Of a stretch of 64,000 nucleotides of DNA, positions 16,701 through 19,700 are shown one piece after another. The position numbers are program-made. Within the stretch, counting starts at the first letter, position 1; each line of letters begins with the position of its first letter. Where the stretch lies: assembly GCF_000026545.1 (NCBI RefSeq), contig NC_011601.1; one strand, given 5' to 3'. Source of the DNA: Escherichia coli O127:H6 str. E2348/69. Lineage in GTDB: Bacteria; Pseudomonadota; Gammaproteobacteria; Enterobacterales; Enterobacteriaceae.

Positions 16701-19700
16701 CATTGCCTGTGCGGCATTCCCGGTGCTGTATGAATCGGTTACTGATATATTTTCCTGCATAGATTTAACCGGCCATCTGAGATGGCCGACAGGTTAACAT
16801 AATTACTGCCGTTTAGGGCCACGCGCTCAGCCAGCGGGTGAAAACGCATCTATCACCTTGTGATCGATACCTTCATTCTCCCCCGCCAGTTCGGCACCGA
16901 GCTTCGCCATAAACTCGACTAAAAATTGCGCGTTGTGCTGTGCCAGCTGCTTGCCTCTTGCGGTTTGCATGGTTTGCGGTAATTTCAGTAACTTTGTCTG
17001 GAAATGATCCAGCGCGTAGCGTTTATCATCAAGCGGGCGATGCTGTGCGAACGGATCTTCGCCATCAAACAGCGCCAAGCCCAATGCCCCTGAAACGGCA
17101 AATACGCGCGTCAGGCCAATCGCCCCCAGGGCTTCCAGCCGATCCGCATCCTGGACGATTTTAGCTTCCGTTGTTAAGGGGGCGATTTGCGCGCTGAAAC
17201 TGTGAGCGGCAATGGCATGACAAACGGCCTCAATTTTCTCCGCCGGAAATTGCACGAACTCTTCACGGAGCAGGCGACGCGTCTCTTCTGCCGCCAGAAT
17301 TGAAGAACGCTGCCGTTGCGGATGATTTTTCGCCAGGCTCACGATATCGTGAAAATAACAGGCGGTTAAAATCACCAGCATATCGACATCGTCATCTGCC
17401 GCCAGCTTCTGTGCCGTAGCCCAGACACGGCGAAAATGACACAGGTCATGCGCCGCGTCCTGATGTTGATGATGGTTTTTCAACCAGTTCTCGAACTGTG
17501 CCTGCCAGTGTTGTAACTCCATACGCGCTCCGTTGCCAAAGAGTCGCAACCTTAGCAGTTTTTATTCATAGCGTCTGCAACGTGCGGGACGAGGTCGGGT
17601 GTACCATGCAATGCCGCCTAACAAGGCACCAACCAGGGCCATAAACAGAAATCCGACCAATGCTCCTAACCACTTCCCCGCGGTAGATCCTAAATCACTT
17701 TCAAATCCCGACACGGGGGCATCGGGGATCCGGCTCATCACCCAGATGTATCGCGCCATTGCCCAGACGAAATAGCCACACCATGTATAGAAAGCCCACA
17801 AAGCCAATTTGCCGCCAGGACTGCGAGAGAGTCTCTCTTCCATCTTTGTCGAACCGTATTCCATTTTGAGATAACCCGGAAAATTCAGACTTAGAACTAT
17901 TATGTGATAAAAATCACATTTTTCCACATTGGATGAGCCAGTCAAGACTCAATCATTTTTTGAACAAATAGATAAATTTTGCGCAACGGCGGTGAATACA
18001 GGAAAACTCGATTTGAACGATTTTATTTATCTTTGATTTCGGCTTTATTAATTCATTCAATCAATATATTGGTACTGATTACAATTATACCTTTTTATTT
18101 TTCTGTGTCATCATGCCTCCGTTATTAGCCTTTTATCGTCTTGTTTATATTTTTTTTGGCCGGCATGATGCCGGCTTTTTTTATGCCTTCATTAATGTGC
18201 GCGAGATCACGCCAGCCGTTTAGCGCAACAATCATTGATACTCCCTATCTTCTCAATCAACTCATAACATATTGATATACATCCATAATATTCATGAATA
18301 TTTATATTCAGAATTCATAACTATGAATTATATTAAACAGATTAGAAACATTATGAAATCTTTTAAATACATTTGTTACATGTAATCTTTAAAATAAAAT
18401 GAACTTCATAGAATAGTATCCAAATGTGCTTTTTTTGGATAACAGCACTTATTGATATATTCATGAAGATTATAATCACAAGGGAATACATAATGAAAAG
18501 AAAAGTTCTGGCAATGCTGGTCCCGGCGTTATTAGTTGCTGGCGCAGCAAATGCGGCTGAAATTTATAATAAAAATGGCAATAAAGTTGAGCTATACGGC
18601 AAGATGGTTGGTGAGCGCATTCTGACCGACCGTGAAAGTGGTGAAAAAGGCGATAATTCTCAAGATACCTCTTATGCCCGTGTAGGCGTGAAAGGTGAAA
18701 CTCAGATCAACCCTGAACTGACTGGTTACGGTCAGTTTGAACTAGACCTGGAAGCATCAAACAGACACAACCCTGACCAAACTCGTTTGGCATATGCTGG
18801 TTTGAGTTACAAAGATTTTGGTTCATTCGACTACGGTCGTAATGTCGGTGTCGCGTATGATGCAGAAGCATTTACTGATATGTTTGTTGAGTGGGGCGGT
18901 GACTCATGGGCTGGTACTGACCTGTTCATGACCAACCGTACCAACGGTGTTGCAACCTATCGTAACACAGATTTCTTTGGCATGGTTGAAGGTCTAAATT
19001 TTGCTCTGCAATATCAGGGTAAAAATGAAGGTACAGGCAACTACAAAGCAAATGGCGATGGCCATGGTTTATCTGCAACTTACACTATTGACGGTTTCTC
19101 ATTTGCTGGTGCTTATGCAAACTCTGACCGTACTGATTGGCAGTCTGGTGATGGTAAAGGCGAAAGAGCCGAAGTTTGGGCGTTGTCAACAAAATATGAC
19201 GCTAACAATGTCTATGCTGCTGTAATGTACGGTGAATCTCACAACATGAATTCCGACGACGGTGATGTTGTGAACAAAACACAAAACTTCGAAGCTGTTC
19301 TGCAATATCAGTTCGACTTTGGTCTGCGTCCATCCATCGGTTACTCCTATTCTAAAGCACTGGACGTAGCAGGTTACAAAGATTCTGATCGTCTGAACTA
19401 TATTGAAATCGGTACCTGGTATTACTTCAATAAGAATATGAACGTATATACCGCTTATCAGATCAACCTGCTTGATAAGAGTGATTATGTTCTCGCTCAT
19501 GGACAGAACACCGACGACCAACTGGCAGTTGGTATCGTCTACCAGTTCTAATCAGCCAACGCGCCGCGGCGTGTTACTGTAAAACTTAACACCAGCCTGA
19601 GTTCGTCCCTCATCGAACTCAGGCTTTTTTATTGGCATTTCATCTCCATCTGCGGCACACGCAATTGCCAAAGCATATCGATACAGCCCCTTACCCTGCC

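What the first reader, a model, noticed from the sequence alone, without database searches (positions are those of the whole stretch)
18493..19551. yedS porin reading frame intact
From memory, yedS is a disrupted pseudogene in K-12. Here a continuous OmpC-family porin ORF with signal peptide is present, so this strain may express an additional general porin, which is relevant to phage receptor and antibiotic permeability phenotypes.
Basis: partly seen in the sequence, partly recalled or inferred. Interest (0 to 1): 0.2.

Follow-up and report, generated by a model that had tools for sequence, protein, structure and literature searches.

The report
Intact alternative porin at yedS locus
The gene is a real, intact outer-membrane pore protein sitting where laboratory E. 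coli K-12 has the broken yedS gene, but it is a different, common and already annotated version of that gene rather than a repaired copy, so the finding is correct but ordinary.

Summary
Window 18493..19551 (+) is an uninterrupted 352-codon ORF. It has a full-length Porin_1 match (E 1.5e-109), a signal peptide, a C-terminal Phe, a Shine-Dalgarno sequence and a terminator.

The window is EPEC E2348/69 (100% identity), where RefSeq already annotates this CDS as "porin". The locus is syntenic with K-12 yedS (drpB-rseX-porin-hchA). K-12 yedS does carry a TAG stop and a frameshift.

The gene is not K-12 yedS with the lesions removed. Flanks, promoter region and signal peptide are 93-100% identical to K-12. 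The 937-bp mature-coding part (18591..19527) is only about 68% identical in nucleotides, and the protein is 60% identical.

The protein belongs to a short, OmpK35/OmpF-like lineage (bootstrap 200/200). K-12 yedS belongs to a long OmpN/OmpK37-like lineage.

At least four allele families occupy this locus in E. coli. This one is in 1166 of 5426 complete genomes. Intact alleles of the other families, including the K-12 type, are common.

Both lineages also occupy the same yedJ-drpB locus in other Enterobacteriaceae genera.

Function as a general porin is well supported. Expression is not tested; the upstream region is AT-rich and probably silenced by H-NS.

Interest is low to modest.

The parts
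18493..19551 (+). Porin CDS, 352 aa plus stop (precursor). The mature protein is 331 aa.
   Evidence: The ORF is intact. Pfam Porin_1 matches full length, E 1.5e-109. It is identical to RefSeq WP_000824393.1 'porin' of E2348/69. The AF2 model has 16 strands and TM 0.85 to OmpF/OmpK35.
18493..18555 (+). Sec signal peptide coding region (MKRKVLAMLVPALLVAGAANA, cleavage ANA|AE).
   Evidence: It is identical in all E. coli alleles of the locus, including K-12 yedS. The model shows an N-terminal helix at 2-16 with low pLDDT, outside the barrel.
18591..19527 (+). Divergent allele cassette: the mature-porin coding part that differs between allele families of the locus.
   Evidence: Nucleotide identity to GPEC102 (the 371-aa allele in the same B2 background) is 100% over 18493-18590, 67.8% in the cassette, and 98-99% again from 19528 onward. 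Against K-12 it is ~68.7% over the part that aligns.
18480..18485 (+). Shine-Dalgarno-like AAGGGA, 7 nt before the ATG.
   Evidence: Read directly from the sequence. It is invariant among the four alleles aligned.
18496..18513 (+). Candidate pairing site for the 5' end of the sRNA RybB (codons 2-7). Inferred only.
   Evidence: RNAduplex gives -17.2 kcal/mol, z -3.6 against 500 shuffles. This is comparable with the known targets ompC and ompF, and ompN pairs at the same position. The RybB sequence was verified. It fits the 2.5-fold sigmaE-dependent decrease of yedS in K-12 (PMC2731931).
17946..18492 (.). AT-rich drpB-porin intergenic region. It holds rseX and the presumed porin promoter and is a likely H-NS/StpA target.
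   Evidence: GC is 21-38% in 200-nt windows against ~50% in the flanking genes. It is 93.6% identical to K-12. rseX in this region is derepressed in hns/stpA mutants of K-12 (PMC8313858). A weak promoter-like site lies at 18373-18400. One OmpR-type TGTWACAW palindrome lies at 18373-18381, but the motif is not enriched in the window.
18092..18182 (+). rseX small RNA gene, upstream neighbour on the same strand.
   Evidence: Rfam RF01401, 89.4 bits (gathering score 50), E 5e-12, full length. Its own terminator is at 18158-18176.
19594..19633 (+). Intrinsic terminator of the porin gene: 12-bp stem, 8-nt loop, T-run.
   Evidence: Found by the terminator scan. It is invariant in all four alleles aligned.

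Best explanation
This is an intact allele of the accessory general-diffusion porin that occupies the drpB-rseX-[porin]-hchA ('yedS') locus, here in EPEC strain E2348/69.

The precursor would be exported by Sec and cleaved after ANA. The BAM machinery would then insert it through its C-terminal Phe signal as a 16-stranded beta-barrel, by homology a trimer. Loop L3 and a conserved ladder of charges form the constriction. It should therefore pass small hydrophilic solutes and beta-lactams, as OmpF and OmpK35 do. Its extracellular loops are unusually short.

It is not the K-12 yedS gene with its lesions repaired. The mature-coding 937 bp is an alternative cassette from a different, old porin lineage. 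That lineage is short and OmpK35/OmpF-like, and it is the same lineage that sits beside yedJ-drpB in Klebsiella oxytoca, Enterobacter cloacae, Citrobacter braakii and others.

The cassettes are exchanged within E. coli by homologous recombination. The anchors are the conserved promoter and signal-peptide region on one side and the last eight codons plus terminator on the other.

Shown here: the intact ORF, the family membership, the fold, the conserved pore residues, the synteny, the cassette boundaries, the population frequency and the phylogenetic placement.

Inferred: trimeric pore activity. Also inferred is that expression is low or conditional, through H-NS/StpA silencing of the AT-rich upstream region and sigmaE/RybB-type post-transcriptional repression. 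On that reading the protein acts as a back-up porin and a variable surface target.
For: The ORF is intact and matches Porin_1 over its full length.

The best solved relatives are OmpK35 (E 1e-131), then PhoE and OmpF. The AF2 model has 16 strands, pLDDT 77.5. Foldseek gives TM 0.85 to OmpF and OmpK35.

The equivalents of OmpF pore residues K16, R42, R82, R132, D113, E117 and D121 are all conserved. The position of PhoE's anion-selectivity lysine K125 is Asn.

Synteny with K-12 yedS is clear.

The cassette boundaries are sharp. Against a B2 strain carrying the 371-aa allele, flanks are 98-100% identical and the cassette 67.8%. ST131 carries that same 371-aa protein.

Alleles of 357 aa, 371 aa and K-12 type (393-404 aa) are all at the same locus and intact. 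Mosaic alleles exist.

Counts in 5426 complete genomes: this cassette 1166; the 357-aa type about 743; the 371-aa type about 903; the K-12 type 1662.

The closest relatives outside E. coli (62-69% identity) all lie next to yedJ-drpB, whereas ompF-locus porins form the neighbouring clade. Bootstrap support is 200/200 and 198/200.

A divergent Escherichia lineage, whose flanks are 84-91% identical, carries this cassette at 92.7%.

Differences from other alleles are concentrated in the extracellular loops: 39-44% identity there against 74-75% in the strands.

For regulation: the upstream region has 21-38% GC. rseX next door is H-NS/StpA-silenced (PMC8313858). yedS transcript falls 2.5-fold on sigmaE induction in K-12 (PMC2731931). 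A RybB pairing site is predicted. A porin described as 50% homologous to K-12 YedS was detected by proteomics in an STEC strain (PMC9731836).
Against: There are no expression or functional data for this allele in E2348/69, so it could be transcriptionally silent under all tested conditions.

Pore function and trimer formation rest on homology and on an AF2 monomer model of only moderate confidence.

The H-NS, OmpR and RybB statements are extrapolated from K-12, from Salmonella ompS1, or from in-silico pairing. The OmpR motif is not enriched. MicF is reported from memory of Warner et al. 2013 to regulate YedS, but it shows no better-than-chance pairing with the -60..+40 region.

Allele counts come from megablast coverage and identity bands, not from a per-genome typing. 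They do not say how many copies are intact.

The tree is neighbour-joining on one representative per species.
Confidence: 0.8

Rival explanations
1. This is simply the functional ancestor or orthologue of K-12 yedS. On this reading it is the same gene, K-12 acquired a stop and a frameshift, and this strain did not.
For: The locus, the flanks and the signal peptide are the same. K-12 does carry a TAG and a frameshift.
Against: The mature part is ~68% identical in nucleotides and the protein 60% identical to K-12 YedS. That is no closer than to the paralogues.

The two fall in different clades with 188-200/200 bootstrap support.

True intact counterparts of the K-12 allele exist elsewhere, for example strain PD4 at 97.5% nucleotide identity and 397 aa.
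Confidence: 0.05
2. The cassette is a recent horizontal import from another genus, such as Klebsiella, Enterobacter or Citrobacter, that replaced the resident E. coli gene.
For: The lineage is shared with the yedJ-drpB-locus porins of those genera. The breakpoints are sharp. GC is ~44% in the cassette against ~50% in the neighbouring genes.
Against: The nearest protein outside Escherichia is only 69% identical, among one genome for each of 100,044 species and among 5.8 billion clustered proteins.

The cassette is in 21% of complete E. coli genomes in two sub-clades, at >=99% and ~97% identity.

It is also in a divergent Escherichia lineage at 92.7%, which is about that lineage's flank divergence. 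This points to long residence in Escherichia.
Confidence: 0.08
3. The gene is intact but cryptic. It would be permanently silenced by H-NS/StpA and contribute nothing to the outer membrane, so the intact frame has no phenotypic meaning.
For: The upstream region is very AT-rich. The neighbouring rseX is undetectable unless hns/stpA are deleted (PMC8313858). Salmonella ompS1, the name given to yedS in PMC2731931, is known from the literature as a quiescent porin; this point is from memory.
Against: An intact frame was seen in every copy whose annotation or reading frame was examined here, except K-12 and one O157:H7 strain, which suggests purifying selection.

Loop-focused divergence suggests the protein is exposed to selection at the cell surface.

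The yedS transcript is measurable and regulated in K-12 (PMC2731931). A YedS-like porin was seen by proteomics in STEC (PMC9731836). Warner et al. 2013 report a functional YedS affecting carbapenem susceptibility; that paper was cited but could not be read.

E2348/69 also encodes the H-NS antagonist H-NST in this same window.
Confidence: 0.25
4. It is a specialised channel, for example a PhoE-like anion or phosphate porin, rather than a general porin.
For: NCBIfam's PhoE model scores almost as high as its OmpF model (407 against 409 bits). PhoE structures are among the top hits.
Against: All three NCBIfam scores are far below the equivalog cutoffs of 583-599. The position of the PhoE selectivity lysine K125 is Asn. 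The mature protein has a net charge of -20, more acidic than OmpF or PhoE. The locus is not the phoE locus.
Confidence: 0.04

Closest known systems
E. coli K-12 yedS (b4496; formerly b1964-b1966), the porin pseudogene between rseX and hchA
   Same: The chromosomal position is identical. The upstream region, rseX, Shine-Dalgarno, signal peptide, last eight codons and terminator are 93-100% identical.
   Different: K-12 has a TAG at codon 162 and a frameshift. Its reconstructed product is 397 aa against 352 aa here. Mature-part identity is ~68% in nucleotides and the protein is 60% identical. It belongs to the long OmpN/OmpK37-like lineage, not the short OmpK35-like lineage.
Klebsiella pneumoniae OmpK35, and OmpF orthologues such as E. 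coli OmpF and Enterobacter OmpE35 (PDB 9hn1, 5o77, 1opf, 6ene)
   Same: These are the best sequence and fold matches. They share the VEWGGD L3 motif and the GKMVGE start of strand 1, the 16-strand barrel and the conserved constriction residues. They form the sister clade, 198/200.
   Different: Identity is only 56-62%. Those genes lie at the asnS-ompF-aspC locus, not at yedJ-drpB. The NCBIfam OmpF equivalog cutoff is not reached. Loops L1, L2, L6 and L7 are different or shorter.
Functional YedS of a carbapenem-resistant clinical E. coli (Warner et al. 2013, Antimicrob Agents Chemother 57:1935)
   Same: It is an expressed, intact porin encoded at the yedS locus that influences carbapenem susceptibility. 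This is known here only through citing papers and from memory of the abstract.
   Different: The paper could not be read, so it is unknown which allele family that isolate carried. The reported MicF control is not mirrored by detectable MicF pairing here.
Salmonella OmpS1 quiescent porin, regulated by OmpR, H-NS and LeuO
   Same: yedS is equated with ompS1 in PMC2731931. It is an accessory porin with an AT-rich regulatory region. One OmpR-type TGTWACAW palindrome lies ~115 nt upstream here (motif from PMC3586657).
   Different: No Salmonella sequence was compared here. By length and motifs OmpS1 should resemble the K-12-type long lineage, not this allele; that is inference from memory. Regulation in E. 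coli is untested.
Mosaic, recombining alleles of surface-exposed porin genes such as ompC in E. coli and ompK36 in Klebsiella
   Same: Variation is concentrated in the loops, segments are exchanged within the gene, and mosaic alleles occur (P0006, P0011, P0015).
   Different: Here whole mature-protein cassettes from two lineages as distant as paralogues alternate at one locus, both within E. coli and between species of several genera.

Membership tests
General bacterial porin family (Pfam PF00267 Porin_1; OmpC/OmpF/PhoE type) | Full-length match to the family profile above the curated cutoff | tested here: met
   367 bits against a cutoff of 23.7, profile positions 1-337 of 337.
General bacterial porin family (Pfam PF00267 Porin_1; OmpC/OmpF/PhoE type) | Cleavable N-terminal signal peptide and a C-terminal aromatic residue (the BAM beta-signal) | tested here: met
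   The signal peptide is MKRKVLAMLVPALLVAGAANA|AEIYNK and the protein ends in VYQF. No dedicated signal-peptide predictor was available.
General bacterial porin family (Pfam PF00267 Porin_1; OmpC/OmpF/PhoE type) | 16-stranded beta-barrel with loop L3 folded into the lumen | tested here: met
   The AF2 model has 16 strands, with helical L3 at residues 119-148. Foldseek gives TM 0.85 and rmsd 2.5-3.3 Å to OmpK35 and OmpF. This is a prediction, not an experiment.
General bacterial porin family (Pfam PF00267 Porin_1; OmpC/OmpF/PhoE type) | Charged constriction: a basic cluster (OmpF K16, R42, R82, R132) facing acidic L3 residues (D113, E117, D121) | tested here: met
   All seven positions are conserved in the alignment.
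General bacterial porin family (Pfam PF00267 Porin_1; OmpC/OmpF/PhoE type) | Forms trimeric water-filled channels in the outer membrane | not testable with these tools
   This needs biochemistry or electrophysiology.
Allele of K-12 yedS (the same gene, intact) | Same chromosomal position with collinear flanks | tested here: met
   The order drpB-rseX-porin-hchA holds in both genomes, and the flanks are 93-97% identical.
Allele of K-12 yedS (the same gene, intact) | Coding sequence at within-species allelic identity, comparable with the flanks | tested here: not met
   The cassette is ~68% identical in nucleotides with many indels. The protein is 60% identical, against 55-57% to the paralogues.
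Allele of K-12 yedS (the same gene, intact) | Same phylogenetic lineage as K-12 yedS | tested here: not met
   The window protein is in the short clade (200/200). The K-12 type groups with the long Citrobacter porins (188/200). The best PDB hits also differ: OmpK35 for the window protein, OmpK37 for the K-12 type.
OmpF / PhoE / OmpC equivalogs (NCBIfam NF007446, NF007544, NF007841) | Score at or above the curated equivalog or subfamily cutoff | tested here: not met
   Scores are 409, 407 and 386 bits against cutoffs of 583, 599 and 484.
OmpF / PhoE / OmpC equivalogs (NCBIfam NF007446, NF007544, NF007841) | Genomic context of the named gene (asnS-ompF-aspC for ompF) | tested here: not met
   The gene lies between drpB and hchA. 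The ompF-locus porins of other genera form a separate clade.
H-NS-silenced 'quiescent' porins (Salmonella OmpS1/OmpS2 type) | AT-rich upstream regulatory region | tested here: met
   GC is 21-38% over 17900-18500.
H-NS-silenced 'quiescent' porins (Salmonella OmpS1/OmpS2 type) | Silencing by H-NS, and activation by OmpR or LeuO | not testable with these tools
   The evidence is only indirect. The neighbouring rseX is H-NS/StpA-repressed in K-12 (PMC8313858). A single OmpR-type motif is present but is not enriched.

The most novel reading that the evidence does not exclude
The drpB-hchA ('yedS') locus may be a long-lived polymorphism, possibly shared across species. Two porin lineages as distant as paralogues, one short and OmpK35-like and one long and OmpN/OmpK37-like, alternate as single occupants of the same locus.

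Both types occur within E. coli, spread across phylogroups. Between species, both occur in Citrobacter, Klebsiella/Raoultella, Enterobacter and Phytobacter.

The cassettes would be swapped by recombination anchored in the invariant signal-peptide and terminator sequences. Frequency-dependent selection from phages, colicins or antibodies would maintain them.

The E2348/69 allele has the shortest loops and would be a low-exposure variant. In this strain the island-encoded H-NS antagonist H-NST (window 37681-37923) could lift silencing of the locus.
Probability: 0.3. Interest if true: 0.5.

Novelty: already known. Interest (0 to 1): 0.22.

Why it matters
If it is expressed, this strain, and about a fifth of sequenced E. 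coli including UPEC 536, Nissle 1917 and 83972, has an extra OmpF-like entry route for beta-lactams and small nutrients. It also has an extra surface molecule that phages, colicins and antibodies could use or miss. This matters for interpreting porin-loss resistance, where ompC/ompF mutants may retain a back-up pore.

For annotation, the K-12 name "yedS pseudogene" hides the fact that most E. coli carry an intact gene here, of one of several very different types. Current pipelines label these only "porin", or mislabel the K-12 type as "ompC".

None of this is surprising for a surface-exposed porin, and the gene itself is already in the databases.

Tried and rejected
MicF and RseX pairing. The porin translation-initiation region (-60..+40) pairs with MicF and RseX no better than shuffled sequence does (z +0.06 and +0.15), whereas the positive control ompF-MicF gives z -4.7. 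I therefore do not claim MicF control, although it is reported in the literature as I remember it. MicA also showed no signal.

OmpR motif. TGTWACAW occurs once, as a palindrome, upstream at 18373-18381. The motif is not enriched in the window: 9 found against 10.9 expected. I treat it as a weak lead only.

Promoter scan. The number of sites is no greater than in shuffles, 6 against 7.5. No promoter is assigned.

Warner et al. 2013 could not be retrieved by DOI or PMC id.

Literature searches for yedS, OmpS1 and 'outer membrane protein S1' in E. coli found no description of the allele families. A search containing 'E2348/69' was rejected by the tool.

Naming the protein OmpF, PhoE or OmpC was rejected because all equivalog cutoffs are missed. 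Some database records name it 'outer membrane protein N', but it is 57% identical to OmpN and in another clade.

The K. pneumoniae porin at this locus (L073) is not OmpK37 itself: 532 bits for 381 aa.

A search for a foreign donor of the cassette found nothing above 69% identity outside Escherichia.
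Full report
**What is there**

Window 18493..19551 (+) is a single open frame of 352 codons ending in TAA. 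It has no internal stop or frameshift.

It matches Pfam Porin_1 over the whole profile, E 1.5e-109. It starts with a typical porin signal peptide (MKRKVLAMLVPALLVAGAANA|AE) and ends in ...VYQF. An AAGGGA Shine-Dalgarno lies 7 nt before the ATG. A strong intrinsic terminator follows at 19594-19625.

The window is 100% identical to the chromosome of EPEC E2348/69, where exactly these coordinates are the RefSeq CDS WP_000824393.1, 'porin'. The identical protein is on record from 45 contigs, and its 90% cluster has 2356 members. Sources call it 'porin' or, wrongly, 'outer membrane protein N'.

**Same locus as K-12 yedS**

The gene order in the window is yedJ - drpB(yedR) - rseX - porin - hchA - hprS/R. 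It is the same as in MG1655, where the porin position holds the pseudogene yedS, b4496. rseX is found at 18092-18182 with 89 bits.

K-12 yedS has a TAG at codon 162 and a frameshift near codon 221.

**Not the same gene repaired**

I aligned the window with K-12 in 60-nt steps. Identity is 85-100% from yedJ through the promoter region, rseX and the signal peptide. It drops to 35-75%, with many indels, from about 18600 to 19527. From 19528 through hchA it returns to 87-100%.

By segment, identity to K-12 is as follows:

| Segment | Identity to K-12 |
|---|---|
| yedJ | 96% |
| drpB | 94% |
| Intergenic region | 94% |
| First 93 nt of the CDS | 96% |
| Cassette (only 374 nt align) | 69% |
| 3' end and terminator | 95% |
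| hchA | 97% |

The protein is 60% identical to reconstructed K-12 YedS (397 aa). That is about the same as to OmpN (57%), OmpF (56%), PhoE (55%) and OmpC (55%).

Its best solved relatives are OmpK35, then PhoE and OmpF. An intact K-12-type allele is closest to OmpK37, then OmpK36 and OmpC. It reaches none of NCBI's OmpF, PhoE or OmpC cutoffs.

**A polymorphic locus**

The same drpB-hchA position holds other intact porins in other E. coli strains:
- a 357-aa porin in strains CUVET16-819 and O145:H28 RM13514;
- a 371-aa porin in GPEC102, and the identical protein in ST131;
- intact K-12-type porins of 397, 393 and 404 aa in strains PD4, SLDY13 and 19KM1863;
- a frameshifted K-12-type copy in an O157:H7 strain.

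Approximate counts in 5426 complete genomes:

| Allele family | Genomes | Criterion |
|---|---|---|
| Window cassette | 1166 | 510 at >=99%; 655 at 95-99% |
| 357-aa type | about 743 | >=95% identity |
| 371-aa type | about 903 | >=95% identity |
| K-12 type | 1662 | >=80% coverage |

The >=99% group of the window cassette includes 536, Nissle 1917 and 83972. The 95-99% group includes ATCC 8739 and an O6:H16 strain.

GPEC102 has flanks 98-100% identical to the window for more than 2 kb on each side, yet its cassette is 67.8% identical. The breakpoints are at about 18591 and about 19527. This is the signature of allelic replacement by homologous recombination within one phylogroup.

Mosaic proteins exist:
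- P0006 has the N-terminal half of the 357/371 type and the C-terminal half of the window type.
- P0011 is the reverse.
- P0015 joins an NmpC-like N-terminal half (recognised from memory) to the window-type C-terminal half.

**Origin**

I scanned one genome per bacterial species. Outside Escherichia, nothing was closer than 69% identity. The large protein collection gave the same result.

All the best hits outside E. coli lie directly downstream of yedJ-drpB, which is the same locus. They are K. oxytoca, K. grimontii, K. michiganensis, K. spallanzanii, K. indica, Raoultella, E. cloacae, C. braakii, Leclercia, Silvania, Phytobacter ursingii and Kosakonia, at 62-69% identity.

The next group of hits, which includes OmpK35, lies at asnS-ompF-aspC.

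In a neighbour-joining tree of the mature proteins:
- the window protein clusters with the short porins of the yedJ-drpB locus (200/200 bootstraps);
- this clade is sister to the OmpK35-type ompF-locus porins (198/200);
- the K-12-type alleles cluster with long porins that occupy the same locus in C. werkmanii and two other Citrobacter (188/200), near OmpN.

K. pneumoniae, Enterobacter soli, Phytobacter massiliensis and Intestinirhabdus also have long-type porins there. Each locus has only one porin within ±3 kb.

One record labelled E. coli (L014) has flanking genes only 84-91% identical to the window. It carries the window-type cassette at 92.7%. The allele family is therefore old within Escherichia rather than a recent import.

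**Likely function**

The AF2 model (pLDDT 77.5) shows a 16-strand barrel with a partly helical L3. It superposes on OmpF and OmpK35 at TM 0.85.

The equivalents of OmpF K16, R42, R82, R132, D113, E117 and D121 are all present. The position of PhoE's anion-selectivity lysine is Asn.

Compared with the other E. coli alleles, strands are 74-75% identical and extracellular loops 39-44%. L1 and L6 share no residues. This allele has the shortest L6 and L7.

I infer a general, OmpF-like diffusion pore with a minimal and divergent exposed surface.

**Expression (inferred, not shown)**

- The upstream region is 21-38% GC and nearly identical to K-12's.
- The adjacent rseX is derepressed only in hns/stpA mutants (PMC8313858).
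- The K-12 yedS transcript falls 2.5-fold on sigmaE induction, along with ompC, ompF, ompN and phoE (PMC2731931).
- The 5' end of RybB (sequence verified) can pair with codons 2-7 at -17.2 kcal/mol, z -3.6. That is comparable with the known targets ompC and ompF.
- MicF, RseX and MicA give no signal.
- A porin described as 50% homologous to K-12 YedS was detected by proteomics in an STEC strain (PMC9731836).
- Warner et al. 2013 report a functional YedS affecting carbapenem susceptibility. I could cite that paper only second-hand.

**Verdict**

The feature is an already annotated, common allele of a known kind of gene.

The more interesting point lies outside the finding as written: two deep porin lineages alternate at this locus within and between species. 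That pattern is documented here at survey level only.

Noticed in passing
window 37681-37923 (+): This is an 80-aa protein with only the H-NS N-terminal oligomerisation domain (Pfam Histone_HNS_N, E 3e-11). It appears to be H-NST, the truncated H-NS antagonist described for EPEC E2348/69 (PMC3897749). It could relieve H-NS silencing of AT-rich loci such as the porin promoter 19 kb away. That link is speculative.
   Followed up: partly
window ~35650-61137: This is a genomic island next to tRNA-Asn (61062-61137). It holds a tyrosine integrase, a HEPN + DUF262 gene pair, an MvdC/MvdD-type ATP-grasp gene, PilV shufflon adhesin and pilin genes, a MobQ relaxase pseudogene, RepL, a PIN protein and H-NST. 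Two further tRNA-Asn genes lie at 28086-28161 and 62886-62961.
   Followed up: no
window 18496-18513 (+): This is a predicted RybB seed-pairing site in codons 2-7 of the porin mRNA: -17.2 kcal/mol, z -3.6. ompN pairs at the same position. The site lies in the ~98 nt that are invariant among all allele families. That might help explain why the recombination boundary sits just downstream.
   Followed up: partly
window 18196-18211 (+): This is the counterpart of a CRP footprint reported near K-12 yedS at coordinate 2033766 (PMC12871828). Here it reads TGTGCgcgagaTCACG, so it deviates from the K-12 site ggTGTGAtcaggcGCACAtta.
   Followed up: no
L010, L011, L013 and hits H31-H39 (other E. coli genomes): PGAP names intact K-12-type alleles of the yedS locus 'ompC / porin OmpC'. 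Such genomes therefore carry two genes called ompC. The window-type, 357-aa and 371-aa alleles are called only 'porin'.
   Followed up: partly
L018 (JAIJJM010000575.1, a 2136-nt contig of a 'Collinsella sp.' MAG): The contig encodes a yedS-locus porin followed by HchA at 99% identity to E. coli. It is almost certainly an E. coli contig mis-binned into an actinobacterial MAG.
   Followed up: no
P0015 (E. coli protein, 353 aa): This is a chimeric porin. Its N-terminal half, including a different signal peptide, looks NmpC-like (recognised from memory). Its C-terminal half is identical to the window allele. It is either recombination between paralogous porin genes or an assembly artefact.
   Followed up: no
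H101 (NZ_CP063511.1) and H113 (NZ_CP184097.1): In some strains the porin at this locus is split by an IS1 insertion. An O157:H7 strain has a frameshifted K-12-type copy. Inactivation recurs in several lineages, not only in K-12.
   Followed up: no
L014 (NZ_JAATUR010000007.1, labelled E. coli): The flanking genes are only 84-91% identical to the window, while the porin cassette is 92.7% identical. The hchA-proximal intergenic region is rearranged. This is probably a cryptic Escherichia lineage carrying the same allele family.
   Followed up: partly
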